Of a stretch of 64,000 nt of DNA, positions 7,416 to 56,701 are shown piece after piece. The stretch is from an uncultured bacterium. Lineage in GTDB: Bacteria > Muiribacteriota > Ozemobacteria > Ozemobacterales > Ozemobacteraceae. The DNA is taken from contig CAYYUI010000007.1 of assembly GCA_964474705.1 (NCBI GenBank), positions 15,061 to 79,060 on the forward strand. The letters run 5' to 3'. The translations under genes were made by a program, and so were the position numbers. Each line of letters begins with the position of its first letter. Position 1 is the first letter of the stretch. Below the pieces are notes generated by a model, which saw only the letters and a list, made by a program, of their open reading frames with translations, ran no database searches and had not been told where the DNA came from.

Positions 7416-10400
7416 ATGGCATCATTGCTTTCTGAACGACAACAAACCAAGGTCTTGCGCCTCGCTCCGTTACCCCTTTGGAAATGGATTGCCGTCATCC
7501 TCGTGCTTCTGAGCGTGCCGGTGGCAATTCTTGTCAGGCAGGCGATAGGGTCATTCAAGGCAACTGCCGCCGTTGCCAGGAGCGAGGCAGCTCACCAGGT
7601 TGAGAAACTGGCCAGCCGTTTTGTTTTTGAGGCAAGAACTGTCGTTCAGATCAGGCAATTGTTAAAAGATTATTCAGTTCATTACGTCGAACCGCTGAAG
7701 ACGGCGGCTCTGTTCAGAGCTCTCAGGCTCAACAGTCTTCCAGGTAATGTCCCCCAGTTAAATTTCTGTCTCCTGATGAACGAGCTGGCAATGCTCAAAA
7801 TCCGTGACCGCTCCGAGAGCCGTTTGCGTCGACTTATTCCAGGCCTGAAACTTGTCAGATGGGGGCTCGATCTTGTTGAATTGCCGGGCAGCGACCAGCT
7901 GTTGCCGAAATGGCCTTATCAGAAGCTCACTGAATCGGTAATCAGAAGTATTAATCCGTCTGGTGATCGCCGCGGCCGTTATTTCGACTATCTCGAGCAT
8001 GTGCCGATGCTGAACCGCTATTTCACTGACGCTCAGGGGTTGGGCACATTTCTGAAACATGGTGATGAAATGCTGGTTTGCGGGAACCCCGCCGGAAACA
8101 AGCTGATGATGTTCTGGAATGCTGAAAAAGCTCATTATCTCAGCCATGAACGTCATTGTGCCGGTGGTTTTCTTGCGGTGATTGAGGCAGACCGCATTCC
8201 CGCTTCATTCGGTCTGCAGACCCTGGTGTTGAGAAAAGCCCACGAATGGGAAAACTCCGGAGTTTCGGCGGGCTGGATCGTTGAAAATGAACCGACGAAA
8301 AGGTTTCTTCCCTACCCATTTCCGGCTGCTGATCAGGAAAAATGGGTAAGATGGCTGGTAAATCAACCTGATGGCATTAATGAACGCGATGGGGTTCTTT
8401 TTGCTCTGCGCCGTTCATCTGAGGGGCTTATTATGCTGGCTGCCGCCAGTACTCTTGAGATAAATCTGAATTTTGAGCGTCACGTCTTTTTTGCCGGCCT
8501 GCTGATAACCGTTTCGGGCTTGCTGCCACTGCTTTTAATTGTCAGCCAGCGCCGCAACGATGGTATGGCTGTCAGCCTGAGACTTCAGATTGCCGGATTG
8601 TTCATCATTGCCATGCTTCTGCCGGCTGCTGCTATCTATCAGCTCGGCAGTGAACTTCTTCTCGACCGTCAGAAGGCATTTGAAAATGATGCGTACAAAG
8701 AAATAGAGCGAATCAAAAAAGATCTCGATGAAAACATGGGTTTTGCCTTCAGACACCTCGAAGGCCTGAGCAATGAAGCCGGCAGGCAGCTTATGCGGCT
8801 GCAGTTCAAACCCGACGGCCAATTTGTCACACCTGATCGGGCAAGCGAAATAATCAAAAAAACATCGAGTCAGGCCAGTATTCTCCATTCCTATCTGCTG
8901 AACTCATATTCTGAAGTGGTTTTCTCCTATTCACCCGATGAGGACGATTCTGAAGGTAAGAACCTTTTACCCCTCATTCAATCGCTGGCGAAAATCAAGT
9001 TGCGGTCTTCGGGCAAACTGAAAACCAGGGGAAAAGTTCTCGATGTCAGCTTTATCGATCTTGTCGTCGAAGCCACCGGCGGAGCGAATCTCGAAGATAT
9101 CAAAGCCATTATGAGTAACCGCGAAAACCGCGCGTTTGAGATGAAATTCAGCGGCCGTCGCAGTATCTTTTTTATCGGGCAATTCTCGACAGGCCAGTTA
9201 CCTGAAGAGACCTTCAGTCTGATACTTTTGATGCGCGACAGTCATTTCGAGCGGATGTACCTGCGGCTGATGATTGACCGTATCTGTAATCAGCCTGCAT
9301 ATGACGGCAGAATTCAGTTGTATTTTGGCTCGAACAATTGCGGTTCCGATGGCTATTTCCTGCATGCGCCGCTGAATAACCCCTGGTTTGACTATATCAA
9401 CAATACGCCTGATTCAATCAGAATCGGCCGGATCTCTGACCCCACGCGCTTTACAGGAGTTGGAATCAGGGAAAGCGTCACTCTCGAAACAGGCGGACGT
9501 AAATGTCTGTTTTACAGTTTCAGACCTGCCGGTCTTGAGCAAAGTTCAGTTGTTGCCCTTTTCAACTATGAGGAAATCCTTGCCGGGCTGCGTCGTCTCC
9601 AGGGTTTCATAGTAGTTTCACTTCTGGTGTCCATCATCATTGTTTTTATTCTGGCCAGAATTATGGCCAGATCGCTGATCGAACCGGTGCTTCTTCTGAA
9701 GCACGGGGTCGAAGAGATTGAAGGCGGCAACTTCCGCACCTCGGTGCTTTTGCCGGGGAGCGATGAGATAGTCGAGCTGGCAACCGCCTTCAATAAAATG
9801 AGTCAGGGGCTTGACGAACGTGAAAGAATGACCAGATATCTGTCCAGGTCGGCTGTTGACGCGGTTGTGAGCGGCGACGACAGCCGGATGGGCGGCCGCA
9901 AGGTTCCTGCAACTATTCTCTTTTCCGATATCAGAAGCTTTACAACCATCTCGGAATCTAATACTCCTGAAGATGTCGTTAATCTGCTCAATGAATACTT
10001 TGCAGCCATGAACGTCGTGGTCGAGAAGTTCGGTGGTGATATCGACAAGTTCATTGGTGATGCAATCATGGCTCAGTTCATTACCGGGCCGGGTATGAAT
10101 CCAGCATCACTTGCCCTGAATGCGGTTAAATGCGCTCTTGGCATGATGGATGCCCTGGCTGAATTCAACCGCCACAGGAGTAATGCCGGCCTTTTTCCAA
10201 TCAAAATCGGGGTTGGCATCAATTCCGGCGATGTCATCGCCGGCAATATCGGCTCTCCCGGGCGCATGGACCGAACGGTCATCGGTGACACGGTCAATGT
10301 TGCATCGCGTCTTGAAGGTATGAGTAAACTTGGCAAACATACCTGTGTCATCATCAGCCGTTCAACTTTAGATCTGGTGCAGGAGCATGTCGATGTGGAA

Positions 10401-10472
10401 CGACTGGCTGAAACAGCTGTTAAAGGCAAGACTGCTGCCGTCGAAATGTTTGAAGTTACGGGCCTCAAATAG
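7416..10472 (+). CDS. Sensor adenylate/guanylate cyclase: N-terminal TM, large periplasmic/extracytoplasmic region, second TM, HAMP domain, and a C-terminal class III cyclase (CHD).
   Basis: HAMP region LIEPVLLLKHGVEEIEGGNFRTSV...ELATAFNKMSQGL. CHD region ATILFSDIRSFTTISE...FGGDIDKFIGDAIMAQF...GINSGDVIAGNIG. Confidence 0.85.
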   Translation: MASLLSERQQTKVLRLAPLPLWKWIAVILVLLSVPVAILVRQAIGSFKATAAVARSEAAHQVEKLASRFVFEARTVVQIRQLLKDYSVHYVEPLKTAALFRALRLNSLPGNVPQLNFCLLMNELAMLKIRDRSESRLRRLIPGLKLVRWGLDLVELPGSDQLLPKWPYQKLTESVIRSINPSGDRRGRYFDYLEHVPMLNRYFTDAQGLGTFLKHGDEMLVCGNPAGNKLMMFWNAEKAHYLSHERHCAGGFLAVIEADRIPASFGLQTLVLRKAHEWENSGVSAGWIVENEPTKRFLPYPFPAADQEKWVRWLVNQPDGINERDGVLFALRRSSEGLIMLAAASTLEINLNFERHVFFAGLLITVSGLLPLLLIVSQRRNDGMAVSLRLQIAGLFIIAMLLPAAAIYQLGSELLLDRQKAFENDAYKEIERIKKDLDENMGFAFRHLEGLSNEAGRQLMRLQFKPDGQFVTPDRASEIIKKTSSQASILHSYLLNSYSEVVFSYSPDEDDSEGKNLLPLIQSLAKIKLRSSGKLKTRGKVLDVSFIDLVVEATGGANLEDIKAIMSNRENRAFEMKFSGRRSIFFIGQFSTGQLPEETFSLILLMRDSHFERMYLRLMIDRICNQPAYDGRIQLYFGSNNCGSDGYFLHAPLNNPWFDYINNTPDSIRIGRISDPTRFTGVGIRESVTLETGGRKCLFYSFRPAGLEQSSVVALFNYEEILAGLRRLQGFIVVSLLVSIIIVFILARIMARSLIEPVLLLKHGVEEIEGGNFRTSVLLPGSDEIVELATAFNKMSQGLDERERMTRYLSRSAVDAVVSGDDSRMGGRKVPATILFSDIRSFTTISESNTPEDVVNLLNEYFAAMNVVVEKFGGDIDKFIGDAIMAQFITGPGMNPASLALNAVKCALGMMDALAEFNRHRSNAGLFPIKIGVGINSGDVIAGNIGSPGRMDRTVIGDTVNVASRLEGMSKLGKHTCVIISRSTLDLVQEHVDVERLAETAVKGKTAAVEMFEVTGLK

Positions 10473-13566: not shown

Positions 13567-13806
13567 TCAGGCTGCGAGCTGTTCGCGTCTTTCTTCGTCT
13601 CTGAAGAGATTGATTTCGCCGTTGCTCATATCGTAGAGCCGCTGCTGAATCTTTGCCTGGACGATTTCCAGACCGTTGGGCAGATCGAGAAGATTTGCAT
13701 CTTTGCCAAGAATGTCCTTGTAGGCAGATTTGATGTGCTGGATCATTCTGATGCGGAATTCAGCATCGGTCTTGGCCTGATAGAGCGGGGTATTCGGAAG
13801 AATCAT
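13567..13806 (-). CDS. Small hypothetical protein (79 aa). Start reassigned to the ATG at 13806 (MILPNTPLYQ...), which has a GGAGG RBS 8 nt upstream; the listed ORF extends to 13872.
   Basis: Strong SD (aaaGGAGGcacacaacATG). No family recognised. Confidence 0.5.
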   Translation of the reverse strand: MILPNTPLYQAKTDAEFRIRMIQHIKSAYKDILGKDANLLDLPNGLEIVQAKIQQRLYDMSNGEINLFRDEERREQLAA

Positions 13807-13888
13807 GTTGTGTGCCTCCTTTGAACTTCTTATGTGTTCCTGAGGAACTATCGACATGATTCCATAGCTCAATTAACATTTTTTTCGT

Positions 13889-16343: not shown

Positions 16344-16479
16344 AACCAGTTTCCTTTCCGGAATTCCATTGTTGTTAAGAACAAGCTTGTTTATCTGTTG
16401 AATGTAACTCCAACTGCCTGCTTCTTTCAATCTTTTGTTTCTAAGGTTTAGTGCAAAATATACCGAAAAGTATGTCTGA

Positions 16480-18495
16480 ATGAAAAAAATTAGATTTATC
16501 GCTACAATATTGTTAATTTTCACTCTGACCTTTCATGCCGGCTGCATGGATTCTGAAAAACCATCTCCCGGCGGCCTGAGTGGTTCTGTCACTGATTCGG
16601 CAGGTAAACCGCTCAGTGCTGTGAGGGTGGCAACGGCTGACGCCAGCACCTTCTCCGATATATATGGAAAATGGTCGCTTGAATCGCTGGTGCCGCAAGT
16701 TACCCAGGTTACCGCTTCACGTGATAATTATCAGACCCAGGCGCTCAATATCGAAGTTATCAGCGGCGAAACGACGACAGGTGTAAATTTTTCTCTGCCG
16801 GCTGACACTGAAATTTACAATATCCAGGTGAGCGGCATCACCTCGGGTCGTGCTCAAATCAACTTCTACACGAAGTTTCAGGCCCGTGCCCACGTCAGTT
16901 ATGGTGCCAATGCTCTTATGGATAAAACTTCCGTAACCGATTCAGAACTGATCTTTGCGCACCAGTACAGCCTCGAAGGGTTGTCCGCCGCTACTACATA
17001 TCGTTTTAAGTGTGTTGCCATCGATAAAGCCGGTCGAACGATCGAATCAGATATTCAGACTTTCAATACCCCGGTGACCGTGCGCGGTGAAGCGCCCACC
17101 GGGTTGAAGCTTGCTAAAACAGCAAACAGCAATGCAATCGAACTGTCATGGAACTCCGATGCCGGAAGTGATTTTGCCGGTTTCCTCGTTTACCGGGCAA
17201 CTTCGGCGCAGGGCCCGTTCACAAAACTTGGCAGCGGCGTGGTTAATCAGAACGCCTGGACAGATATCGATGTTAAATCCGGGGTAAAATATTACTACCG
17301 CGTTACCAGAACTTCAGGCTCGGGAGATGAATCATCTCCTTCAAACGTCGTCTCGTTTCTGATGCCCGGAATGATAAGCGAAAACGTTGTCTGGACGCTC
17401 CAGGAATCCCCATATCAGCTGACCGGGGATCTTACGATTGCTGCCAACGCCAGTCTGATTATCAACAAGGGTGTCAGCGTTGCAGTTTCACGTGGTGACC
17501 AGTGGGATGCCGATTCGGCTGCGGATCTGATCGATCTGGTGGTCCAGGGCACCCTGATGATTCAGGGAACCTCAGCATCACCGGTGACGATGACCTCGGC
17601 CGCCGCTTCGCCTCAGCCCGGCGACTGGAACGGCATTACTTTCGAGAACTCCTCTGACCTCGGTGCCAGCTACATCAAGGGTTTGCAGCTGGCGTTCGCA
17701 GAAAACGGCCTGATTGGAGTTGCCGGTCTGCCGGAAACTCGCGACTCGAAATTTTCCAGCTGCCGCCAGGCGGCAATTAAAGCGACCGCAGCCCGTCGCG
17801 ATCAACTTTTCAGCACTCTGACCATCGAGACCTGTGCAACCGGGTTCGACATGCAGAAGAACCTGGTGACGGTTCAGATTCTGGATAGCTCGATTAGACG
17901 CTGCATTACCGGAGTGGTGTGCCGCGACAATACTCTGGTCGAGGTAGAGCGCAACCACATCAGTCTCGCCGGCGCGTGCGGAATAGATCTTGGTAACACT
18001 GCAGTCGCTTCCAGAACGAGATTTAATATCGTTGGTTTCGGCAGTAACGGCACCGGCATTATCTGCCGCGGTAACGACGAAGTGCGCCGCAATACAGTGC
18101 AGGCTGGAATTGGTATCGAGATTAAAGAGACAGCCAGAGCAGTGATAAGAAGCAATCTGGTTCTGGCCGATGCTGCCAGAAATGGCATCGGCATTCTCTA
18201 TACGGGAACCGTTGCCTATAACCCCTCGACGGCGACTAATACACAATTCATTCAGAATAACGGCATCTGGAACGTTGCTGCCGGTCGCAAATACCTGAAC
18301 TCCAATGGAACGGCTCTGACTGGATATGCTTCAGACCTGAGCTTCACCGATCTGGCCGGGCCGGGCCTGCAGGGTGGCGATCCATTTGCATCGACTCTGA
18401 ATGAAAATTTTAATTATGTTCCTTCTTCGGGAAGCCCGCTGAAAGGCGCAGGATATGACTACGAAACGGTAGGAGCCGAAGATGTTCCTGACTGA
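16480..18495 (+). CDS. Lipoprotein paralog 1 of 3: CarboxypepD_reg-like domain + two FN3-like domains + right-handed parallel beta-helix (PbH1/NosD/pectate-lyase-like).
   Basis: Lipobox LTFHAGC. Regulatory-like region GSVTDSAGKPLSAVRVA...YGKWSLESL, an FN3-like module (LSWNSDAGSDFAGFLVYR), and repeated beta-helix rungs (DWNGITFEN...). Confidence 0.8.
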   Translation: MKKIRFIATILLIFTLTFHAGCMDSEKPSPGGLSGSVTDSAGKPLSAVRVATADASTFSDIYGKWSLESLVPQVTQVTASRDNYQTQALNIEVISGETTTGVNFSLPADTEIYNIQVSGITSGRAQINFYTKFQARAHVSYGANALMDKTSVTDSELIFAHQYSLEGLSAATTYRFKCVAIDKAGRTIESDIQTFNTPVTVRGEAPTGLKLAKTANSNAIELSWNSDAGSDFAGFLVYRATSAQGPFTKLGSGVVNQNAWTDIDVKSGVKYYYRVTRTSGSGDESSPSNVVSFLMPGMISENVVWTLQESPYQLTGDLTIAANASLIINKGVSVAVSRGDQWDADSAADLIDLVVQGTLMIQGTSASPVTMTSAAASPQPGDWNGITFENSSDLGASYIKGLQLAFAENGLIGVAGLPETRDSKFSSCRQAAIKATAARRDQLFSTLTIETCATGFDMQKNLVTVQILDSSIRRCITGVVCRDNTLVEVERNHISLAGACGIDLGNTAVASRTRFNIVGFGSNGTGIICRGNDEVRRNTVQAGIGIEIKETARAVIRSNLVLADAARNGIGILYTGTVAYNPSTATNTQFIQNNGIWNVAAGRKYLNSNGTALTGYASDLSFTDLAGPGLQGGDPFASTLNENFNYVPSSGSPLKGAGYDYETVGAEDVPD

Positions 18496-20452
18496 TCGAA
18501 GATTCTTACTGCCGACTTTACTTGTATCGCTCATCTTTATGGCTCTGATGACCGGATGCGGATTACGCCAGTCGCAAACCGGCAGCCTTAGCGGTCGGGT
18601 AGTCGATGCCGATGGTAATGCCGTGGTCAACGCCCAGATATATTCTCTTTTCGCCGAAAAGGAAAAAGTAATGAGCGGCCTCGATGGCGGCTTCTATCTT
18701 TCTGAGCTTCCTGCAGGGCTTAATAACATCGTTATTCTTCATGACGATTTTCAGACCGAAACACATCAGATTGAAATCAAATCCGATGATACGACGGTTG
18801 TCGATTTGATCAAACTGGATCAGGCCGGCAAGACCAGCCGCATCAGCAATGTCAGAGTTGTCGGCGTTGCATCGACGAGTGCGGTTGTTGCATGGCAGAC
18901 TCTCCGCAGTGTTGCCTGCAACGTTGATTATGGCACCAGCGTTTATTATGGATCTCTGTTGCGCGAACAGAGGCCGGCTACCGAGCATACCGCTGTGTTA
19001 AGCGGTCTGCTGCCCGAAACGCTTTATCATTTTCGTGTCCAGTATCTCGATGAAAGTGCCGCAAGCTATTTTTCCTATGATTACTCATTCAGGACTGCCG
19101 ACGCAGATCGGCCACAGAAACCGGCTGCCATCCGTATTCTTCCATTCACATCTGCTTCAATCGTTGAACTTGAATGGGATGCAGCAACTTCAGGTCTTCC
19201 TGCCAGCGGCTTCATTATTTATCGTCAACTCAAGAACGGTGTCTGGACAAGGTTGAATGAAACGCCTGTCGATGCAGCCGCACGTGCGTATGCCGATCAG
19301 GCCGCTGTAAGCGGTGGATTCTGCCGCTATGCTGTCGCGGCGGTTAACAGTCTCGGCGCCGAGTCAGAATTGACAGTTTCTGAAATGGTGCTTGTTCCCG
19401 GTGTCATTGCCAGTCATATGGTGATCGAAACAACCGATTCCCCTGTCAGATTGAACTCTGATCTAATAGTTGCCGCCGGAACCAGTTTGACGATTCAGTC
19501 TGGAACTGAAATACAGATTGGCGACAGCGACAGTCTGCAAACCGGTTCGGATGAAGAAAAGATAGAAATCATCGTCCAGGGTCGGCTCGAAGTTCAAGGA
19601 ACTGCAGAAGCTCCGGTTGTGTTTTCGCCCATGAACGGTTCAGGTAAACGTGACCACTGGGCCGGAATCCGCATTCTCTCTTCTCTTGGTGGCGTGTCTG
19701 ACCTGAATCATGTCAAATTGTTCGGCTGTAAAGGTTACGCGCTGGAAGTCAATGCCGAAAGTGTCAGAATCAGCAATATTTCGGTAGCCTATTCCAATTT
19801 TGGTCTGCTCCTCGATGGAGTTCGCGAAGTAATGAGTCTTGACAACTGCAGTTTTTCTGAAATCGCCTCGGTAGCACTCGATATTCGCAACTGTCGTCGC
19901 ATGATCGTCGACAACAGCCTCTTTTCAACTGTTCATACCGGAATTTCCGTAAAGACTCTCAAAACCGATGACCAGACAATAATCCGCAACACCGACATTT
20001 ATGCCTCCAATACTGGCATCAAAGGCCTGTTCGGTCGCAGCCGTATTCTCAATACGCTGGTCGTGTGCCCTGAAGGTGCCGGGATCGTTTGCGAAAACAC
20101 CTTGAGTACTTTCGACAATTATATCGATCATGTAACAGTCGACGCTTTGAATGGTATTGCCATCTACAATGGCGTTTTCAATATTCAGAACAGCATTGTT
20201 GCCAACCACAACCAGAAAGGGCTTGTTGGCATCAGTTGCGGCACAGGACTTATCCCTGAATACACCTATAACGATGTTTTCGGCTTTTCGACAGCCTATC
20301 AGGGTTGCAGCGGTGGGACCGGATCGATTGCAATCGATCCAAAGTTTGCCGCCGGTAATCCTTATGATTACAGTCTTATGGCCGATTCTACTCTGAAACT
20401 TCAGGATAGTTATGGTTCAGAGATAGGTAGATACGGAGTTTCAAGACTATGA
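18482..20452 (+). CDS. Lipoprotein paralog 2 of 3 (same architecture). Start overlaps the stop of paralog 1.
   Basis: Lipobox LMTGC. Regulatory-like region GRVVDADGNAVVNAQIYS...GGFYLSELPAG, FN3 modules and beta-helix repeats (HWAGIRI...). Confidence 0.8.
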   Translation: MFLTDRRFLLPTLLVSLIFMALMTGCGLRQSQTGSLSGRVVDADGNAVVNAQIYSLFAEKEKVMSGLDGGFYLSELPAGLNNIVILHDDFQTETHQIEIKSDDTTVVDLIKLDQAGKTSRISNVRVVGVASTSAVVAWQTLRSVACNVDYGTSVYYGSLLREQRPATEHTAVLSGLLPETLYHFRVQYLDESAASYFSYDYSFRTADADRPQKPAAIRILPFTSASIVELEWDAATSGLPASGFIIYRQLKNGVWTRLNETPVDAAARAYADQAAVSGGFCRYAVAAVNSLGAESELTVSEMVLVPGVIASHMVIETTDSPVRLNSDLIVAAGTSLTIQSGTEIQIGDSDSLQTGSDEEKIEIIVQGRLEVQGTAEAPVVFSPMNGSGKRDHWAGIRILSSLGGVSDLNHVKLFGCKGYALEVNAESVRISNISVAYSNFGLLLDGVREVMSLDNCSFSEIASVALDIRNCRRMIVDNSLFSTVHTGISVKTLKTDDQTIIRNTDIYASNTGIKGLFGRSRILNTLVVCPEGAGIVCENTLSTFDNYIDHVTVDALNGIAIYNGVFNIQNSIVANHNQKGLVGISCGTGLIPEYTYNDVFGFSTAYQGCSGGTGSIAIDPKFAAGNPYDYSLMADSTLKLQDSYGSEIGRYGVSRL

Positions 20453-22419
20453 AGCAGACATTTTTGCTTCGAGCAACCAGAATGCGTTTGCTGGCTGTAT
20501 TGGCCTTGTTTGTCGTCATGCTGCTCGCCCAGGGCTGCGAAAATCAGGTGCAGACAAAACGCGGTTCTGTTAACGGCAGCGTTCGCGACACTCTCAACAA
20601 TGCAATCGCAGGGGCGACCTTAACTTCACATCGTTCGTTGTTCAAGGCTGAAACTGACGAAAACGGCCGGTTTGAATTCACCTCTCTCGATGTTGGAACA
20701 CACCGGTTATCTGTTGAGCGTAACGGCTACTATCTTGCTTCAAAAACTGTTGAAATAGCTTATGGTGAAGTTCTTGAAGGCATAGAGATCAGAGTTGAAC
20801 CCCTCGATAATATGATCACCCACTCTGTAGCACGTCGAGAAGGCAGTCAGGTGTTGATAGATGTGAACTGCAAAGAGGCAATGTCGGTAGTCATCGGCTG
20901 GAGAGAGGTAACCGGAGCGAGAATTCAGCTGCCGCCAACTGAATGCAGAAAGAGCCACCAGCTGCTGTTGACAAATCTTTTCCAGGGTTCTCAATACATC
21001 TATGACCTGACCGGAACAACAGCGGATGGCCGCCGTTATGTGGCTGAAACCGGTTCATTCAAGGCTGTTCCTTATGGTGACCTTGCCGGATCACCAGATA
21101 CTGTTGCCAGTTTTAAGGTTGACCAGGGAACAGAAGGCCCGGTTTTGAGCTGGAACTATGAAGGTGCTGATCCTCTGCAGGGCTTCAGAATTCATCGCGG
21201 TGAAAACGACGGTGCTCTTGTCCTGATTCAAAATGAAAACAATGTTTTTGCCGTTCAGACGACCGTAGTCGATGATACGGCGATTCCCGGCAGAATCTAT
21301 CGCTATGGTATGCAGAGTGTAGATCTTGACGGGAATGTATCATCGATGAGTGCGCTTGTAAGCATAATGCCCGGAGGCAGTATCAGCGAAAACCTCGTCT
21401 GGAAAAAAGCATGGAGTCCAATTGATGTCAATGGTGACCTGATAATACCGGCTGGTAGAACTTTAACGATCGAAGCCGGCTGTGTTGTCAGATTTGCAGC
21501 TGCCGATAATGGAAAATCTGGATTCAGGCCCGCTGTCTGCGAAATGATAGTTGACGGAACCCTTCTTGCCGAGGGGACCTCGATCAATCCGGTCCGGCTG
21601 ATATCGGCTTCTGCAGTTCCAACGCGCAGTGGCTGGGATGGCATTCGATTGACTGCTGCCGCTAACCAGGAAGAAAGCGTCTTGAAGAATATCGAGATTT
21701 CCGGAGCGGAACGCGGTCTGAGTCTTTATAGCTCTAATGCTGTTATCAGCAGTTTCACAGCCAGATATTGTCAGACTGGATTCTCGCTTCAGGGGGCCAG
21801 CGGCACGATTCTGACCGGTTTTTTGTTTGAAGACTGCGAAACTGCATTTATTTCTGAGAATTCATGGAACTGCAGCGTCGACGATCTGAAAATCCGAAAC
21901 AGCAGTGTTGGCGTCAGACTGGCCGGAAACGGAAACTTTTCCATGCGTCATTTTGATCTGCGGGGTATAAGGGAAACAGCTCTGGTCGCGGCTGATAAAG
22001 ACAGGACGATTCTTCGCAACGGCCTGATAAAATCTTTGCGAACTGGTATAGCCGTTGGCGCTGCCGGGGGAGATTTTCAATATCTGACCATCGATGCGGG
22101 TAACGGTGTTATTGTCGAAGGGGTATCTCTGCCGATTATCAGGAACTGCATCATGGTAAATCTCGGTACCTCTGGAACTGGCTATGGAATTGAGGACAGA
22201 AATCCCGGGAGCGCGCGCTCATACCCTTATAACAACATTTTTGGCTTCAAACAGGCTACTGTGGGCTGTGACCAGCTTGGAGCTCCGGTTATCAACCTCG
22301 ACCCCATTTTTGTCGGCGGTAGGGCAGATGAGTATGATTATCGTCTGCGTGCCTCATCACCAATAATAACAGCTTCAGACAAAAATGCCGAGCCCGGTGC
22401 TTACGGCAGCAGCTATTGA
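20449..22419 (+). CDS. Lipoprotein paralog 3 of 3 (same architecture). Start overlaps the stop of paralog 2.
   Basis: Lipobox LLAQGC. Regulatory-like region GSVRDTLNNAIAGATLTS...ENGRFEFTSLDVGTHRL, an FN3 module and beta-helix repeats (GWDGIRL...). Confidence 0.8.
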   Translation: MKQTFLLRATRMRLLAVLALFVVMLLAQGCENQVQTKRGSVNGSVRDTLNNAIAGATLTSHRSLFKAETDENGRFEFTSLDVGTHRLSVERNGYYLASKTVEIAYGEVLEGIEIRVEPLDNMITHSVARREGSQVLIDVNCKEAMSVVIGWREVTGARIQLPPTECRKSHQLLLTNLFQGSQYIYDLTGTTADGRRYVAETGSFKAVPYGDLAGSPDTVASFKVDQGTEGPVLSWNYEGADPLQGFRIHRGENDGALVLIQNENNVFAVQTTVVDDTAIPGRIYRYGMQSVDLDGNVSSMSALVSIMPGGSISENLVWKKAWSPIDVNGDLIIPAGRTLTIEAGCVVRFAAADNGKSGFRPAVCEMIVDGTLLAEGTSINPVRLISASAVPTRSGWDGIRLTAAANQEESVLKNIEISGAERGLSLYSSNAVISSFTARYCQTGFSLQGASGTILTGFLFEDCETAFISENSWNCSVDDLKIRNSSVGVRLAGNGNFSMRHFDLRGIRETALVAADKDRTILRNGLIKSLRTGIAVGAAGGDFQYLTIDAGNGVIVEGVSLPIIRNCIMVNLGTSGTGYGIEDRNPGSARSYPYNNIFGFKQATVGCDQLGAPVINLDPIFVGGRADEYDYRLRASSPIITASDKNAEPGAYGSSY

Positions 22420-22488
22420 AAGTACTCAGATTCCGTGCGTGAACTGTCGATAACCTAATCAGAAAAACAGCTTTTCTGGAGGTTTGCA

Positions 22489-23067
22489 ATGCGAAGGTTC
22501 GTTGGCGGAATACTGGCGGCAGGAGTATTCTTCTTTTGCGGTTCATCACAGGTAATGGCACAGCGGGTGCCTGCGGGCAAGGAGCTGAATCAGAGAATTC
22601 AGGCTCTGCGAGAACGACTTCAGAATTATCAGAACCAGCGTAATCCCTTGAAACAGCAGAATCAGGTGAATCCTGGCGAAAGTCTGATTATCGAGCCTGA
22701 TGAGACGAAAGGTGAAGTCATTGTTGAAGAGCTTGAGAACCGCAAGGATGTTGCGGTAACGGTTCTTTTCCATGATTCCGGAAATTCAACTGCCGACCTG
22801 GATTTTGAAAATGCTCAGGCGCTGGATGCCGACCAGAACGAAACTGACTCCGGAAAAGATGCTTCGATGAAAATCGTTTCGGTTAAAGCTGCAAAAAATG
22901 ACCCTGGCAGCGAAATGCGTGCGTCTGTAAAAAAATCAGATGACAAACCGACGAAAGATTCCCGGCTTGCGCGATATGAAGAGCTGCGACAAAGGGTTTA
23001 TCTCGCAACAAGAAGTGCCAGAGCTCAGGCAGTTGATATTAACCGTCAGATTGCCAGAATCAACTGA
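22489..23067 (+). CDS. Hypothetical secreted low-complexity protein (signal peptide; Q/N/D/E-rich).
   Basis: N-terminal MRRFVGGILAAGVFFFCGSSQVMAQ is a signal peptide. No recognisable domain. Confidence 0.55.
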   Translation: MRRFVGGILAAGVFFFCGSSQVMAQRVPAGKELNQRIQALRERLQNYQNQRNPLKQQNQVNPGESLIIEPDETKGEVIVEELENRKDVAVTVLFHDSGNSTADLDFENAQALDADQNETDSGKDASMKIVSVKAAKNDPGSEMRASVKKSDDKPTKDSRLARYEELRQRVYLATRSARAQAVDINRQIARIN

Positions 23068-23095
23068 AAAAAAATGAGCTGTTTTTCAACAGCTC
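23066..23095. terminator. Hairpin terminator in the convergent intergenic region, stronger in the minus orientation.
   Basis: gagctgtt-tttc-aacagctc at 23076-23095, with A8 on the plus strand upstream (a T-run on the minus strand). Confidence 0.5.
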
Positions 23096-25367: not shown

Positions 25368-26285
25368 TCAGCGCAGGTTGGCCTGAGTATCGTCTATCAG
25401 ATTCTGAAGACTGGGCGGAATATAGGTGCGCGATGGACCGGGTGCCGGCAGAGTCGTTGGTATCTGCCCAAGTTTAAGAATTCGTCCGGCCTTTTCCGGG
25501 TCCATGCCTCCAAGAACCTTGGCGGCATGTGAAGGCTGCAGGCCTGCCATGATGTCGTAGATCAGCTGGTCATCAGGAACGTCGTCGAAAACTCTTGCCA
25601 GAGCCTTTGCTTCCATCTGGGCAGCAATACCGCGAACCTGATCGAGGCGGTTTTCCTTTTCCATGAAGCGAATAAGACTTGATTCTATGTTCAGGGTTTC
25701 AGAGGCCAGCCTCTGAGAGAGTTCGTCAATGGCAACTTTGCGATTCTCGAGATCCTGGCGTTCGTCGACAAGTTTCTTCTTTTCAACTTCAATAGCTTCC
25801 CGCTGTTTTCTCAATTCTTCGAGTTCCCGATGAGTCTGCTCTTTTTGCGTGCGAATCAGGGAACGGTATGAGTCTTCGAGCGACTGGGCACGGCGTTCAA
25901 GGTCACGACTGCCTTCGGTGATGATGCGATTGAAGCGTTCCTGTTCCTGAAGCATAAGCTGCTGGTAGCGCTCTTCTTCTGGTAACTGGTGCAGCTGCAC
26001 GAAATTGTAATATGGAGCAAGCGGCCAGTATTTGCGGTATTCTTCCGGTATTCGGTAACGAAATGGGTAAATCTCGAGGAAATCGAGCGTCAATACACTC
26101 AGAAAAATTGCAACACCAAGCGATGCCAGGAGAAAGAGAAATACAATGCGGCTGAGAGCAAGGAAAAATTTCGAGGGTGGTCTGACCTCGGGTTGACCGC
26201 TGTCAGCGGGCGGTTTCGCCGGCTGCGGGGCGGGCTGTGCCTGTTGCTCGTTTTTTGTGGCCTGGTTTTGGGTATTTTCAGGCAT
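25368..26285 (-). CDS. Flagellar operon protein of the FlbB/YlxF type: N-terminal Pro/Gln-rich region, one TM, a coiled coil and a C-terminal MgtE_N-like domain.
   Basis: Position is immediately after fliJ, as for Borrelia flbB and B. subtilis ylxF. The motif VFDDVPDDQLIYDIMAGLQPSHAAKVLGGMDPEKAGRILKLG is MgtE_N/FliG-like. Confidence 0.6.
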   Translation of the reverse strand: MPENTQNQATKNEQQAQPAPQPAKPPADSGQPEVRPPSKFFLALSRIVFLFLLASLGVAIFLSVLTLDFLEIYPFRYRIPEEYRKYWPLAPYYNFVQLHQLPEEERYQQLMLQEQERFNRIITEGSRDLERRAQSLEDSYRSLIRTQKEQTHRELEELRKQREAIEVEKKKLVDERQDLENRKVAIDELSQRLASETLNIESSLIRFMEKENRLDQVRGIAAQMEAKALARVFDDVPDDQLIYDIMAGLQPSHAAKVLGGMDPEKAGRILKLGQIPTTLPAPGPSRTYIPPSLQNLIDDTQANLR

Positions 26286-51164: not shown

Positions 51165-52370
51165 GTGTTTGAAAGGGGAGTCTTGATGCCGCTCGTTCTG
51201 AACGACAAACGTGTTGTCGTGTTTCAGCCTGCGTCGAAAGATGATATCAGCGCGATCATCGACCTTTACATCAAGGTTTATAAAGGCAAATACACCCTCC
51301 CGGAAGTCGCAGACCCTGCTATTATTGCCAAAAAGGTAGAAGATCCTGCCTATTTCTGGACAGTTGCCAAAATAGAAGGCCGCCTCATCGGGTCAGTGAT
51401 TTTTGCCATCGACCCGGTCAACAAGATTGGCAAATCATACGCTGCTTCAGTGCTTAATGAATTTCGCGGTCAGGACGTCATGCGCACCATGGTCAGGCAC
51501 GGTCTGCAGCTGCTCACAGAAAAGACCCGCACCTGCGACATCATTTATGCAACCACCAGAACAGTCAGTTTTGCTCCTCAGGTGGTTCTTGAACATCTTG
51601 GTTTCATGTCTACCGGCATTTTTCCGAATGTGCGCAAAGTTGAATCCTTCGAGACACATGGGCTCGAGGTTTTTATGGGGCCTAAATGCCTTGAATACCG
51701 CCGCAAATGCCCGAAGCTGATTCCGGAAATGCTTGATTTCTATAATATCATCAGAGGCGATCTGAATCTTGAAGAGCCTGAGACTGTGGTTCTAGAGAGT
51801 GAAGACCCTCGCAGGATGGGCCCGGCCATCACCTTTGACGTTTTGACTGATGAAGATGCCGTCATCGAAAGGTTTTATCGCTATCAGGACAAAGACCTCA
51901 TGAAGAAGGTTTTCTTTCCTTTTACCGACCCTAATATGCTGTTTTCAGCCAAAGATGGCACTTCTGACATTTTCGTCAATTTCAATCCACTCGATGGCAA
52001 CGGAGTTATGGTCGGCTATCGGCATGCCGGTAAAGACCTGCGCAATACTCTGATGTGGTTCTGCGAAGAGGCTGCCAAATCAGGGATGCGTTATATTGAA
52101 ATGCTGGTGAGTGCTTTTTTGCCAAAGAAACAGCGGCTGGCTCTCGATGCAAAATTTCTTCCCTGCGCCTATTTCCCGGCCATGAAGATGTGCGATGACG
52201 GGCTGCGTGAAGACTTTCTCGTATTTTCCAGGTCGTTTGAAAGCCTCGATTTTATGGATATGCACCTGGTCGACAATAACAGGCGTTTTCTCGATGCGTT
52301 CATGAAATGCTGGTATGACCTTCTGGTCAGATGCCAGCCTGATTTTGACGAGGAGTGGAGAATTGGCTGA
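51165..52370 (+). CDS. Hypothetical protein, possibly a tandem GNAT-like acyltransferase fold (uncertain). First gene of the LuxE/LuxC-like cassette.
   Basis: N-terminal half shows a GNAT-like pattern (beta strand VVFQPAS, GRLIGSVIFAID, FRGQDVMRTMVRHGL...LEHLGF). The C-terminal half is a second, degenerate repeat. No confident family assignment. Confidence 0.55.
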   Translation: MFERGVLMPLVLNDKRVVVFQPASKDDISAIIDLYIKVYKGKYTLPEVADPAIIAKKVEDPAYFWTVAKIEGRLIGSVIFAIDPVNKIGKSYAASVLNEFRGQDVMRTMVRHGLQLLTEKTRTCDIIYATTRTVSFAPQVVLEHLGFMSTGIFPNVRKVESFETHGLEVFMGPKCLEYRRKCPKLIPEMLDFYNIIRGDLNLEEPETVVLESEDPRRMGPAITFDVLTDEDAVIERFYRYQDKDLMKKVFFPFTDPNMLFSAKDGTSDIFVNFNPLDGNGVMVGYRHAGKDLRNTLMWFCEEAAKSGMRYIEMLVSAFLPKKQRLALDAKFLPCAYFPAMKMCDDGLREDFLVFSRSFESLDFMDMHLVDNNRRFLDAFMKCWYDLLVRCQPDFDEEWRIG

Positions 52371-53490
52371 AGCAAAACCATTTGCCGCGTGTGGCGAACT
52401 TTTTGACGTTTCTGACGCTTTCGATCACAACCCTTATACCGGCCAGCTTTTTGACCGGGCCATGAACGAGGCACTGCGCTGGCATGCAGCCCGGTGCCCT
52501 GAATTCCGGGCATTTCTTTCCTGTGCCGGTCTGGGTGATTTCGACCAGGACTGCGCCCCTGAACAGATACCACCTCTACTGGTCACCATCTTCAAAGAAT
52601 TCAGGCTGATATCAGTGCCTGAAAAACAGGTCAAGATCGAATTGACCTCGTCCGGTACCGGTGGCCGCAAAAGCGCTATTGTGCTTGACCACCGCTCTTA
52701 TCGCCGTATTCTGAAGATCGTAAACAGTATTTTTGCTTCTCTGGGCATGGTCGATCACTCGCAAAAGGTTAATTATCTCTGTTTTACTTACGATCCGAAA
52801 GTTGCCGGAAATGTCGGCACCGCATTTTCAGATAAAATGCTCACTGGCCTGACTGCCAGACGCTCAGTCTTTTATGCCATCCGCTGGAACCATAACGCCA
52901 ATGATTTTGAATTCGATCTAGAAGCTACGGTTAAAAAGCTGATCGAGTTCAGTCGCCGTCCCGAACCAGTTAGAATTCTGGGGTTTCCAGCCTACCTCTG
53001 GCAGGTATGCAATCGCCTTGATGAGAAGGGCATGCGTCTGAATCTCGGTAAAAATTCATATATCATTACCGGTGGCGGCTGGAAGATGCACAAAGACCTC
53101 GAGGTGACCAAAGATATATTCAAGGATCGCATTGAGAAAGTTCTTGGCATGCCACGTCAGAATCTGCGTGACCTGTTTGGCATGGTTGAACACGGGATTC
53201 CCTACGTAGACTGCGAAGCCGGGCGGCTGCATGTCCCGGTGTTTGCCCGCGCGCTGGCGGTCGACCCCGAGACTCTGCAACCGGTCAAAGATGGCGAAGA
53301 AGGCCTGCTCTATCTCATGACCCCATATCTTTCCAGCTACCCTTCGATAGCCTTGCTGACTACCGACAAAGCGATCATCGAGGGCGACTGCCCCTGTGGC
53401 CGCCCCGGAAAAACCTTTCGCATAAGCGGCAGAGCCGGACTGGCCAAGCACAAGGGCTGCGCCATCACCGCGCTCGATCTGCTTAAATAA
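52315..53490 (+). CDS. LuxE-family acyl-protein synthetase (long-chain fatty acid-luciferin-component ligase homolog). An alternative TTG start at 52363 has an AGGAG RBS and overlaps the upstream stop.
   Basis: Direct motif matches to Vibrio LuxE: TSSGTGG (vs TSSGTNG), YIITGGGWK (identical), HVPVFARALAVDPETLQPVKDG (vs [22 protein letters not shown]), and C-terminal KHKGCAI (vs TQKGCAL). Confidence 0.85.
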   Translation: MTFWSDASLILTRSGELAEAKPFAACGELFDVSDAFDHNPYTGQLFDRAMNEALRWHAARCPEFRAFLSCAGLGDFDQDCAPEQIPPLLVTIFKEFRLISVPEKQVKIELTSSGTGGRKSAIVLDHRSYRRILKIVNSIFASLGMVDHSQKVNYLCFTYDPKVAGNVGTAFSDKMLTGLTARRSVFYAIRWNHNANDFEFDLEATVKKLIEFSRRPEPVRILGFPAYLWQVCNRLDEKGMRLNLGKNSYIITGGGWKMHKDLEVTKDIFKDRIEKVLGMPRQNLRDLFGMVEHGIPYVDCEAGRLHVPVFARALAVDPETLQPVKDGEEGLLYLMTPYLSSYPSIALLTTDKAIIEGDCPCGRPGKTFRISGRAGLAKHKGCAITALDLLK

Positions 53491-53493
53491 CGG

Positions 53494-56401: not shown

Positions 56402-56701
56402 CTACATTCCGAATTTGGCACTCAACAGCAGTTTGGCGCCGCGGCTGAGTCTTTTTATCTGCATTTCGCGTTTTGAAGCAGTTGACCGGTCTGGCTGGCG
56501 CTCCTGATAACGCAAGATGACCGGCCCTCTGCCTCTGGTAAATCTGGCACCGGTGCCGTCATTGTGTGCGGCCAGCCGTTTCTCCAGATTGTTTGTTATT
56601 CCGGTGTACAGCCTGCCATCGCGGCATTCGACTATATAGACCGTCCAGGCTTCATCTTCGGCTGCATGGCTGATATCTGGGTTGTCAGGCCGGTTTGACA
56701 T
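56402..56701 (-). CDS. GIY-YIG nuclease-superfamily small protein (UPF0213/YhbQ-like). The start is uncertain among 56701, 56728 and 56758.
   Basis: WTVYIVECRDGRLYTGITNNLEKRLAAHN is the GIY-YIG core. About 100 aa. Confidence 0.7.
   Translation of the reverse strand: MSNRPDNPDISHAAEDEAWTVYIVECRDGRLYTGITNNLEKRLAAHNDGTGARFTRGRGPVILRYQERQPDRSTASKREMQIKRLSRGAKLLLSAKFGM

What the first reader, a model, noticed from the sequence alone, without database searches (positions are those of the whole stretch)
16480..22419. Three tandem, translationally coupled paralogous lipoproteins (CarboxypepD_reg - FN3 - parallel beta-helix)
Three consecutive genes of about 660 aa, each with a lipobox Cys (FHAGC, LMTGC, LLAQGC). 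Each has a carboxypeptidase-regulatory-like beta-sandwich, FN3-like domain(s), and a right-handed parallel beta-helix of the pectate-lyase/NosD type with W-[ND]-G-I rungs. Stops and starts overlap (18482/18495; 20449/20452). The sequences are clearly homologous but strongly diverged, which is consistent with an old triplication followed by functional diversification. Possible roles include surface polysaccharide lyases/hydrolases with different specificities, or adhesins. A fourth secreted low-complexity gene follows.
Basis: seen in the sequence. Interest (0 to 1): 0.6.

Follow-up and report, generated by a model that had tools for sequence, protein, structure and literature searches.

The report
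Conserved lipoprotein triad with flagellar-type promoter
Three ancient sister genes for membrane-anchored "stalk plus beta-helix head" proteins, kept side by side in every sampled member of the uncultured phylum Riflebacteria, appear to be switched on by a flagellar-type (sigma-28) promoter, so they look like an unstudied cell-envelope assembly of motile cells, not food-digesting enzymes.

Summary
Genes A (16480-18495), B (18482-20452) and C (20449-22419) encode 671, 656 and 656 aa paralogs that are 24-26% identical. Each has a conserved lipobox Cys, three beta-sandwich domains and a right-handed beta-helix. The stops and starts overlap. Gene D (22489-23067) encodes a small secreted protein.

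One detail is wrong: W-x-G-I occurs once per protein and is not a rung repeat.

What the follow-up added:
- The window comes from a Riflebacteria (Ozemobacteraceae-like) genome.
- The A-B-C order is kept, with one-to-one orthologs, in every sufficiently long locus among 38 Riflebacteria loci. The full architecture was found in no other phylum.
- The beta-helix is a generic NosD/CASH-type module with no close solved or characterised relative. No known catalytic motif set is present.
- The neighbours are housekeeping and flagellar genes, not a polysaccharide-utilisation locus.
- A phylum-wide invariant TAA-N19-CGA motif (TCTAAGG...ACCGAAAA) ends about 11 nt before A's ATG. It matches the sigma-28/FliA promoter consensus.
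- The same motif type recurs before C and D where they are uncoupled from the upstream gene, and before a nearby conserved 79-aa gene.

Best reading: a sigma-28-controlled envelope module specific to this lineage, probably a hetero-complex. Its biochemical function is untested.

The parts
16440..16469 (+). Sigma-28/FliA-type promoter of gene A. The -35-like element is TCTAAGG (16440-16446) and the -10-like element is ACCGAAAA (16462-16469). The predicted transcription start is about 16477, which makes the mRNA nearly leaderless.
   Evidence: TAA-N19-CGA is invariant (2.0 bits per position) in 27 of 27 distinct upstream sequences from across the phylum, at a fixed 16-21 nt from the ATG. The published consensus is TCTAAAG / GCCGATAA (PMC12784957). 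There is no Shine-Dalgarno sequence before A and no sigma-70-like match upstream of A on the + strand.
16480..18495 (+). Gene A: a 671-aa lipoprotein (Cys22) with CarboxypepD_reg, two FN3-like domains and a beta-helix.
   Evidence: Orthologs are 36-76% identical in 29 loci.
18482..20452 (+). Gene B: a 656-aa lipoprotein (Cys26) with the same architecture. Its beta-helix is the most degenerate of the three.
   Evidence: Only 23 of 75 ortholog clusters carry a precomputed Beta_helix hit (my count from the table). The 14-nt overlap with A includes an internal GGAG.
20449..22419 (+). Gene C: a 656-aa lipoprotein (Cys30) with the same architecture. It gives the best beta-helix and NosD matches.
   Evidence: ATGA overlap with B.
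22425..22453 (+). Internal sigma-28-type promoter of gene D. The -10 element GTCGATAA (22446-22453) is canonical. The -35 element CTCAGATT (22425-22432) is weak.
   Evidence: A G[TC]CGATA[AG] element lies in the C-D spacer of every locus whose D start was placed reliably. A full TAA-N18/19-CGA motif precedes D in 11 loci that have longer spacers.
22489..23067 (+). Gene D: a 192-aa Sec-secreted protein that is not a lipoprotein. Its conserved blocks are an N-terminal helix (ELNQRIQALRERL), EELENRKDVAVTVLFHD and a C-terminal helix, around a variable low-complexity middle.
   Evidence: GGAGG lies before the ATG. D is present after C in most loci but not all.
23076..23095 (.). Terminator-like hairpin between the convergent genes D and nadE.
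   Evidence: It was scored on the minus strand.
13567..13806 (-). Conserved 79-aa cytoplasmic protein of unknown function. It may be a fifth member of the same regulon.
   Evidence: It is highly conserved and has no Pfam hit. In locus L023 it sits directly upstream of A on the same strand.
13848..13876 (-). Sigma-28-type promoter of the 79-aa gene (TTAA...N...GTCGATAG, i.e. TAA-N19-CGA).
   Evidence: The motif is conserved upstream of this gene in 15 loci.

Best explanation
The locus is a four-gene module found only in Riflebacteria. The promoter motif suggests it is produced together with the late motility genes.

Transcription and translation. A sigma-28 (FliA)-type promoter is predicted to start a nearly leaderless mRNA at gene A. 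B and C are then translated by coupling, through overlapping stop and start codons with internal GGAG sites. D has its own sigma-28-type promoter.

The proteins. A, B and C are exported, lipid-anchored at a conserved Cys, and have short conserved tethers. Each carries a stalk of three beta-sandwich domains and a NosD/CASH-type right-handed beta-helix head. D is a soluble periplasmic helical protein.

Proposed mechanism. Because all three paralogs have been kept one-to-one, in fixed order and in single copy since before the phylum diversified, I propose they work together as a hetero-oligomeric, membrane-anchored envelope assembly. Its beta-helix heads would bind, and possibly remodel, an envelope glycan or partner structure in motile cells. 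They are not independent nutrient-scavenging enzymes.

Shown here: the gene structure, homology, domain folds, phylum-wide synteny, Cys conservation and motif conservation.
Inferred: the identity of the sigma factor, lipidation, complex formation, the ligand, and the location (periplasm or cell surface).
For: Gene structure, paralogy and domains.

Taxonomy: all full-length homologs are from Riflebacteria, Rifleibacteriota or Ozemobacteraceae. In an exhaustive profile search, every single-stretch hit of about 650 aa that I checked is an A, B or C ortholog.

Synteny: A-B-C occur in the same order with one-to-one orthologs in every locus long enough to judge. No sequence has its nearest neighbour in another family. 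The A-to-B junction is tight in most loci.

Anchoring: the lipobox Cys and the tether sequences are conserved.

Envelope type: diderm. TolC-like OEP, HlyD-family and AcrB genes are in the window, and OmpM has been reported for Riflebacteria.

Promoter: the invariant TAA-N19-CGA lies at a fixed distance from the ATG and matches the published sigma-28 elements. An unbiased scan of 660 kb found this motif recurrently upstream of only four gene families. These are A (26 loci), C where it is uncoupled from B (L026, L027, L030), D (11 loci) and the 79-aa gene (15 loci).

Flagellar neighbourhood: the fliF-G-H-I-J operon lies just downstream in 15 loci, and directly after D in L023.

Possible shared function: the region most conserved between the paralogs is the N-terminal part of the helix, at 30-34% against 14-23% for the rungs.
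Against: - No late flagellar gene (flagellin, motA, cheY) lies in any DNA I could fetch. The motif could therefore not be compared with bona fide FliA targets of this phylum.
- A's -10 element (CCGAAAA) deviates from GCCGATAA, and the spacing is 1 nt longer than canonical.
- Complex formation is only inferred. Distance-matrix correlations among A, B and C (partial r 0.70-0.82) barely exceed those with the unrelated NadE (0.60-0.66).
- B/C coupling is lost in Ozemobacter-type lineages, and D was not detected in several loci.
- The beta-helix fold is typical of carbohydrate-active enzymes, so enzymatic activity remains possible.
- Each paralog conserves a different polar cluster on the same rungs. 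That fits either diversified active sites or interfaces.
Confidence: 0.4

Rival explanations
1. A, B and C are three independent surface or secreted polysaccharide lyases or hydrolases with different substrate specificities, used to degrade environmental or dietary glycans.
For: The right-handed beta-helix fold is shared with PL, GH and epimerase families. The best structural matches include AlgG (TM 0.57), PL6, GH136, GH87, GH91 and phage depolymerases. There is a marginal profile hit to a GH55 glucanase (E 7e-4). Each paralog has distinct conserved polar clusters.
Against: - No CAZyme Pfam family is above threshold, and no known catalytic motif set is present.
- All structure matches are at about 10% identity with E no better than 1e-3 against PDB.
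- There is no transporter, regulator or CAZyme neighbourhood.
- The triad is strictly single-copy with a fixed order and no gain or loss across aquifer, sludge and rumen lineages.
- B's helix is too degenerate for Pfam in about two thirds of its orthologs.
- The genes carry a flagellar-type promoter.
Confidence: 0.12
2. A non-enzymatic surface coat or adhesin. The three lipoproteins are displayed on the outer membrane as an S-layer-like or adhesive array. The sigma-28-like motif is either another sigma factor's site or has no bearing on function.
For: Stalks of Ig-like domains with beta-helix heads are common in adhesins and S-layer proteins. The CarboxypepD_reg domain of C weakly matches an anammox S-layer glycoprotein model. 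The same helix module is repeated up to 25 times in giant secreted proteins. A, B and C evolve faster than the neighbouring housekeeping proteins (mean distances 0.66-0.76 against 0.21-0.53).
Against: The tethers after the lipid-modified Cys are short (9-11 residues) and conserved, with no long disordered linker. Whether this diderm lineage exports lipoproteins to the surface is unknown. This reading does not explain why the promoter motif is shared with a cytoplasmic 79-aa protein and with periplasmic D.
Confidence: 0.2
3. A flagellar accessory structure. A, B, C and possibly D build a lineage-specific periplasmic ring, disk or collar around the flagellar motor, or a sheath around the filament. 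This would be analogous to the FlgP, FlgT, MotX/Y or PflA/B scaffolds of other phyla.
For: Sigma-28-type promoters precede A, C, D and the 79-aa gene. The locus lies next to the fliF-fliJ operon in many lineages, and directly abuts it in L023. Stoichiometric coupling and strict co-retention of the paralogs suit a structural assembly.
Against: No homology to any known flagellar accessory protein was found. The flagellar operon is not nearby in Ozemobacter-type loci. In other bacteria sigma-28 regulons also include non-flagellar envelope proteins such as autolysins (my own knowledge). No imaging data exist.
Confidence: 0.15
4. A NosD-like periplasmic metallochaperone or ABC-transporter partner.
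For: C passes the Pfam NosD gathering score (27.9 against 23.6 bits).
Against: The match covers only generic PbH1 rungs (profile positions 41-143 of 212). A and B do not match. No nosZ, nosF, nosY or nosL, nor any ABC transporter, lies in the locus in any lineage. NosD is absent from the top 50 structural matches.
Confidence: 0.03

Closest known systems
NosD/CASH-type right-handed parallel beta-helix modules (Pfam Beta_helix PF13229, NosD PF05048, Beta_helix_4 PF28492)
   Same: The fold and the PbH1-like rungs are the same. So are the N-terminal motif (PG-x-I...VW...SP...GDL-x-I...G-x-L...G-T...PV...W-x-G-I) and the C-terminal DP-x-F...DY-x-L...S tail. A profile of the A/B/C helix finds 43,359 representative proteins at E<=1e-3. 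They include myxobacterial 'right-handed parallel beta-helix repeat-containing proteins'.
   Different: Those relatives have other architectures and are often giant proteins with 5-25 tandem modules. None that I examined has the architecture lipobox, CarboxypepD_reg, two FN3 domains and a single helix, and none occurs as a conserved triad. NosD's defining nosDFY-nosZ context is absent here.
AlgG mannuronan C5-epimerase (PDB 4nk8)
   Same: It is the best global structural superposition of the C helix domain (TM 0.57 over 352 columns). It is also a periplasmic beta-helix protein that acts on an envelope polysaccharide.
   Different: Identity is 10% and the E-value 2.7e-3. The DPHD catalytic motif is absent. 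There are no alginate genes nearby.
Phage tailspike and depolymerase beta-helices (HK620, P22, Sf6; BFVD tailspikes)
   Same: They are right-handed beta-helix heads mounted on a stalk or adaptor, and many of them work as trimers.
   Different: They are homotrimers of a single gene product. Similarity is only at fold level (TM 0.2-0.5, 8-14% identity). There are no phage genes nearby.
Envelope proteins under sigma-28/sigma-D control in other bacteria, such as B. subtilis sigma-D autolysins and Vibrio MotX/MotY (my own knowledge, not tested here)
   Same: They are secreted or envelope proteins co-expressed with late flagellar genes from TAAA-N15-GCCGATAA-type promoters.
   Different: There is no sequence or fold relationship. 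Here the regulatory link rests on a conserved motif only.

Membership tests
Bacterial lipoproteins (Lgt/LspA substrates) | N-terminal signal peptide ending in a lipobox [LVI][ASTVI][GAS]-C | tested here: met
   B (ALMTGC) and C (LLAQGC) fit a PROSITE PS51257-like pattern. A (TFHAGC) fails only at -3 (His). The Cys is conserved in all orthologs, and deeper-branching A orthologs have canonical L[IQ]GC.
Bacterial lipoproteins (Lgt/LspA substrates) | Actual lipid modification and membrane anchoring | not testable with these tools
   This needs mass spectrometry or globomycin experiments.
Right-handed parallel beta-helix (pectate-lyase-like / CASH superfamily) | Stack of three-stranded rungs forming a right-handed helix, with PbH1-type repeats | tested here: met
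   Pfam Beta_helix scores are A 30.3 and C 34.9 bits (cut-off 25.9) and B 25.5. The AF2 helix-domain model has pLDDT 91.8 and about 10 rungs of 21-23 residues. The top 50 PDB Foldseek matches are all beta-helix proteins.
CAZy polysaccharide lyase / glycoside hydrolase beta-helix families (PL1/3/6/9, GH28, GH55, GH91 and others) | Family-level sequence match and conserved catalytic residues | tested here: not met
   No such Pfam family is above threshold. Pect-lyase_RHGA_epim reaches only E 0.0026 and 18 bits against a cut-off of 27. The profile search against PDB gives GH55 at E 7e-4 at best. The motif sets DPHD, NTD/DD/HG/RIK and WiDH are absent. dbCAN was not available.
NosD | Full-length NosD match plus nosDFY/nosZ gene context | tested here: not met
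   Only C matches, and only over positions 41-143 of 212. No nos or ABC-transporter genes occur in any locus.
Sigma-28 (FliA/SigD)-dependent promoters | -35 TCTAAAG/TAAA and -10 GCCGATAA, separated so that TAA and CGA are about 18 nt apart | tested here: met
   The window has TCTAAGG (6 of 7), ACCGAAAA (6 of 8) and TAA-N19-CGA. The motif is invariant across the phylum. D and the 79-aa gene carry the canonical G[TC]CGATA[AG].
Sigma-28 (FliA/SigD)-dependent promoters | The same motif upstream of late flagellar genes of the same organism, and dependence on FliA | not testable with these tools
   No flagellin, motA or cheY gene lies in the window or in the 38 fetched loci.
Translationally coupled operon | Overlapping or abutting stop and start codons, with a ribosome-binding site inside the upstream gene | tested here: met
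   A/B overlap by 14 nt and B/C by ATGA, each with GGAG 8-11 nt upstream. A/B tightness is conserved in most loci. B/C tightness holds only in the Rifleibacterium-like clade.
Hetero-oligomeric complex of paralogs | Physical association of A, B and C | tested here: inconclusive
   The evidence is indirect only: strict co-retention and fixed order, and a slightly higher residual co-variation of distances among A, B and C (0.70-0.82) than with NadE (0.60-0.66). No multimer prediction was available.

The most novel reading that the evidence does not exclude
A, B and C form a heterotrimeric (1:1:1) lipid-anchored beta-helix assembly. With D and the 79-aa protein it would be a previously unknown, Riflebacteria-specific accessory structure of the flagellar apparatus, such as a periplasmic ring or collar, or a sheath. 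The whole set would be switched on by FliA together with the late flagellar genes.
Probability: 0.15. Interest if true: 0.75.

Novelty: new variant of a known kind. Interest (0 to 1): 0.45.

Why it matters
Riflebacteria are an uncultured diderm phylum. One study reports that they carry among the highest numbers of novel gene families of unknown function per genome of any phylum (PMC10849945).

This locus is a clean synapomorphy-like module. It has four or five genes, is present in every sufficiently long sampled locus, and carries a readable regulatory signal that ties it to the motility programme. If the link holds, it offers three things:
- a concrete entry point to the envelope and flagellar biology of this phylum;
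- an example of an ancient paralog triad kept as a probable hetero-complex;
- a first functional context for one branch of a very large, uncharacterised beta-helix module family (more than 43,000 cluster representatives).

If the link does not hold, the proteins remain ordinary hypothetical beta-helix lipoproteins.

Tried and rejected
- Foldseek of the full-length C model against PDB returned only tandem FN3 proteins. I therefore remodelled the helix domain alone.
- No model coordinates are exposed. Surface-conservation and active-site mapping could not be done, so I used rung-wise sequence conservation instead. It showed family-specific polar clusters but no shared catalytic set.
- NCBIfam gave nothing useful, apart from a domain-level hit to an anammox S-layer model. 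Sequence searches against PDB gave only marginal hits.
- The genomic contexts of two distant helix relatives, P0133 and P0172, were uninformative.
- A mirror-tree test for co-evolution was inconclusive.
- To test the sigma-28 regulon I searched all fetched DNA with tblastn for flagellin, CheY and MotA and found none. Attempts to extend the window through its end genes failed or added only 1.5 kb.
- Within the single window the promoter pattern is not statistically distinguishable from chance once mismatches are allowed. The case for it rests on conservation across loci.
- Rfam and tRNA scans of the window found nothing.
- NosD-like function was rejected for lack of the defining gene context.

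Full report
**Observation**

A fourth ORF, D, follows at 22489..23067 (192 aa).

Pairwise BLASTP gives 24-26% identity with E-values from 2e-31 to 1e-36. The three are true, deeply diverged paralogs and not an assembly artefact.

Pfam finds CarboxypepD_reg, fn3/Pur_ac_phosph_N and Beta_helix in all three. B is marginally below the Beta_helix cut-off, and NosD is above its cut-off only in C.

An AlphaFold2 model of C, built with 38 orthologs, has pLDDT 88.7. It shows a signal helix, three beta-sandwich domains (about 39-116, 123-205 and 220-311) and a beta-helix running to the C-terminus. The helix domain modelled alone reaches pLDDT 91.8 and pTM 0.90, with about ten rungs of 21-23 residues.

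The A/B junction is a 14-nt overlap and the B/C junction is ATGA. Each has a GGAG 8-11 nt before the downstream start. D follows after 69 nt and has a GGAGG.

B and C have canonical lipoboxes. A has His at -3. The Cys is nevertheless conserved in every ortholog, and deeper-branching A orthologs carry canonical L[IQ]GC.

The one wrong detail is the 'W-[ND]-G-I rungs'. The motif occurs once per protein (WNGI, WAGI, WDGI), at the start of the helix.

**Organism and distribution**

All full-length homologs of A, B and C come from Candidatus Riflebacteria / Rifleibacteriota / Ozemobacteraceae genomes or unlabelled metagenomes. A scan of one genome per species returned 38 loci, all from this phylum apart from a few records under other names (Erysipelotrichia, Methylomirabilis).

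In every locus long enough to judge, the order A-B-C is kept with one-to-one orthologs:
- A orthologs are 36-76% identical to the window protein.
- B orthologs are 36-71% identical.
- C orthologs are 33-84% identical.

Within-family identity is 28-98% and between-family identity 18-27%. None of 96 sequences has its nearest neighbour in another family. The triplication therefore predates the radiation of the sampled phylum, and each copy has been kept since.

An exhaustive profile search with the helix domain found 43,359 cluster representatives at E<=1e-3. The top hits are giant proteins (2,000-7,600 aa) that carry up to 25 tandem copies of the N-terminal two thirds of the module. The eight I scanned have Beta_helix and/or NosD hits, some with DUF4215, PKD or FlgD_ig domains. 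Named examples are myxobacterial 'right-handed parallel beta-helix repeat-containing proteins'. All 15 single-stretch hits of roughly 450-730 aa that I checked are A, B or C orthologs or fragments of them.

So the helix module is common and uncharacterised. The architecture and the triad are specific to Riflebacteria.

**What the helix is not**

- Foldseek of the helix domain against PDB gives only fold-level matches (best E 1.3e-3, about 10% identity). The best superposition is AlgG (TM 0.57). Phage tailspikes, AlgE4, adenovirus LH3, PL6, GH136, GH87 and GH91 follow.
- The viral structure library gives the same picture (best E 3.4e-5).
- A sequence profile against PDB reaches only GH55 at E 7e-4.
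- The catalytic motif sets I know for AlgG/AlgE, GH28 and PL1 are absent.
- The three families share almost no polar residues in the rungs. Each conserves its own cluster on the same two rungs: DExRRNT and RSNLxLxD in A, NxxDHxT in B, and TxD plus E582 and D516 in C.
- The part best conserved between the paralogs is the N-terminal part of the helix, at 30-34% against 14-23% for the rungs.
- B's helix is degenerate enough that only 23 of 75 ortholog clusters carry a Beta_helix hit (my count from the table).

**Context**

Upstream and divergent lie an aminotransferase, dut and dapB. Downstream and convergent lie nadE and then a flagellar operon: an unknown 305-aa gene, SLT, fliJ, fliI, fliH, fliG and fliF.

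There is no transporter, regulator or carbohydrate-active enzyme around the triad in any lineage examined. The window also encodes a TolC-like OEP with HlyD-family and AcrB partners. A published survey lists OmpM-type outer-membrane tethering for Riflebacteria. The cell is therefore diderm, and the lipoproteins face the periplasm or the surface.

**The promoter**

Aligning the 170 nt upstream of A from 28 loci plus the window revealed two blocks conserved across the whole phylum. They persist even where the rest of the spacer cannot be aligned because of a GC shift.

Anchored on the second block, the consensus is TTTCTAAnGTTT-N-(T)CCGAAAA. TAA and CGA are invariant (2.0 bits at each of the six positions) in 27 of 27 distinct sequences, and they are exactly 19 nt apart. 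The CCGA starts 16-21 nt before the ATG.

In the window the elements are TCTAAGG (16440-16446) and ACCGAAAA (16462-16469). A recent structural paper gives the sigma-28 elements as -35 TCTAAAG (-36..-30) and -10 GCCGATAA (-15..-8) (PMC12784957). The match is 6 of 7 and 6 of 8, with a spacer one nucleotide longer.

With that geometry transcription would start 2-7 nt before the ATG. This explains why A, unlike B, C and D, has no Shine-Dalgarno sequence. The simple sigma-70 scan finds no plus-strand promoter upstream of A. It does find a minus-strand TTGAAA-18-TACATT match for the divergent aminotransferase gene.

Within the single window the pattern is not distinguishable from chance once mismatches are allowed. 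The evidence is comparative.

To test specificity I scanned the window plus 38 loci (660 kb, both strands) for TAA-N18/19-CGA within 70 nt upstream of any ORF, and clustered the downstream ORFs. The recurrent families with a site in an intergenic spacer were:
- A, in 26 loci;
- C, in three loci where it is separated from B (L026, L027, L030), again 9-11 nt before an ATG;
- D, in 11 loci;
- a highly conserved 79-aa cytoplasmic protein, in 15 loci.

Two further three-locus clusters came up. One is an internal stretch of fliG, where the site is conserved as coding sequence. The other is a 70-aa ORF near dut that I did not follow up.

In the window the 79-aa gene is at 13567..13806 on the minus strand, and its promoter is at 13848..13876. 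The C-D spacer carries a canonical G[TC]CGATA[AG] in every locus whose D start was placed reliably. In the window it is GTCGATAA at 22446-22453.

A motif that follows gene starts when the operon breaks up is behaving as a promoter. It also marks A, C, D and the 79-aa gene as one regulon. In L023 the 79-aa gene lies directly upstream of A on the same strand. In that locus the flagellar operon directly abuts D.

I could not compare the motif with true late flagellar promoters of this phylum.

**Interpretation**

The following are shown:
- four co-oriented genes, with two tight junctions;
- three ancient paralogs that share an architecture of lipid anchor, stalk and beta-helix head;
- phylum-wide one-to-one retention in fixed order;
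- a conserved two-block promoter motif of sigma-28 type shared with D and with a nearby small gene.

The following are inferred:
- FliA is the sigma factor that reads the motif (I estimate about 0.7).
- The proteins are lipidated.
- A, B and C act as a stoichiometric hetero-complex (about 0.45). This rests on co-retention, coupling and the shared conserved helix N-terminus. The mirror-tree signal is only marginally above the control.
- The heads bind or remodel an envelope glycan or partner in motile cells.

A surface coat or adhesin, and a dedicated flagellar accessory structure, remain live alternatives. The flagellar accessory is the most novel reading (about 0.15).

**Novelty and score**

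The domain families are known, and public records call these proteins hypothetical or 'carboxypeptidase regulatory-like domain-containing'. Three things are new: the phylum-specific conserved triad, the accompanying D and 79-aa genes, and the sigma-28-type leaderless promoter that links them to motility.

I rate this a new variant of a known kind, with interest 0.45. It is a well-defined, testable lead in an uncultured phylum, but its biochemical function is unresolved.

Noticed in passing
window 13567-13806 (-), promoter 13848-13876 (-): A very conserved 79-aa protein (MILPNTPLYQAKTDAEFRIRMIQHIK...) has no signal peptide and no Pfam hit. A canonical sigma-28-type promoter precedes it in 15 loci. 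In L023 it lies immediately upstream of gene A on the same strand.
   Followed up: partly
L026:2104-2300, L027:1702-1900, L030:8964-9200: In Ozemobacter-type lineages, C is separated from B and has its own sigma-28-like promoter 9-11 nt before an ATG. That ATG adds a 45-75-residue Arg-rich N-terminal extension ahead of the signal peptide and lipobox. This is unusual for a lipoprotein precursor.
   Followed up: partly
window 16531-16545 (A residues 18-22) and A orthologs: A His at position -3 of the lipobox (AH[AVL]GC) is conserved in most A orthologs, although it violates the usual lipobox pattern. The 9-11-residue tethers after the Cys are also strongly conserved in each family, for example GCGLRQSQTGS in B.
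   Followed up: partly
proteins P0268-P0409: The N-terminal two thirds of the helix module is repeated up to 25 times in giant proteins of 2,000-7,600 aa from many bacteria, including the myxobacteria Hyalangium and Chondromyces. This is a very large family that appears uncharacterised.
   Followed up: partly
window 25368-26285 (-): A 305-aa protein with no Pfam hit above threshold sits at the distal end of the fliF-fliJ-SLT operon. It is conserved in that position in 15 loci (62-94% identity).
   Followed up: no
window 59011-63915 (-): A 1,634-aa ORF with no Pfam match at E<=0.01.
   Followed up: no
window 52315-56106 (+): Adjacent LuxE-like acyl-protein synthetase and LuxC-like acyl-CoA reductase genes. 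The reductase is fused to an AMP-binding domain.
   Followed up: no
window 16401-16430 (-): A sigma-70-like promoter (TTGAAA-18-TACATT) for the divergent aminotransferase-dut-dapB genes. Both hexamers fall in conserved blocks of the same 136-nt spacer, so the spacer holds two back-to-back promoters of different sigma classes.
   Followed up: partly
L010, L018; protein P0220: Records that carry this Riflebacteria-specific locus are labelled Erysipelotrichia, Candidatus Methylomirabilis and Clostridiales. These are probably binning or labelling errors in public MAGs.
   Followed up: no
window 7416-10472 (+) and 56685-58277 (-): Two adenylate/guanylate cyclase-domain proteins. The first is a 1,018-aa HAMP-containing receptor-like protein.
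   Followed up: no
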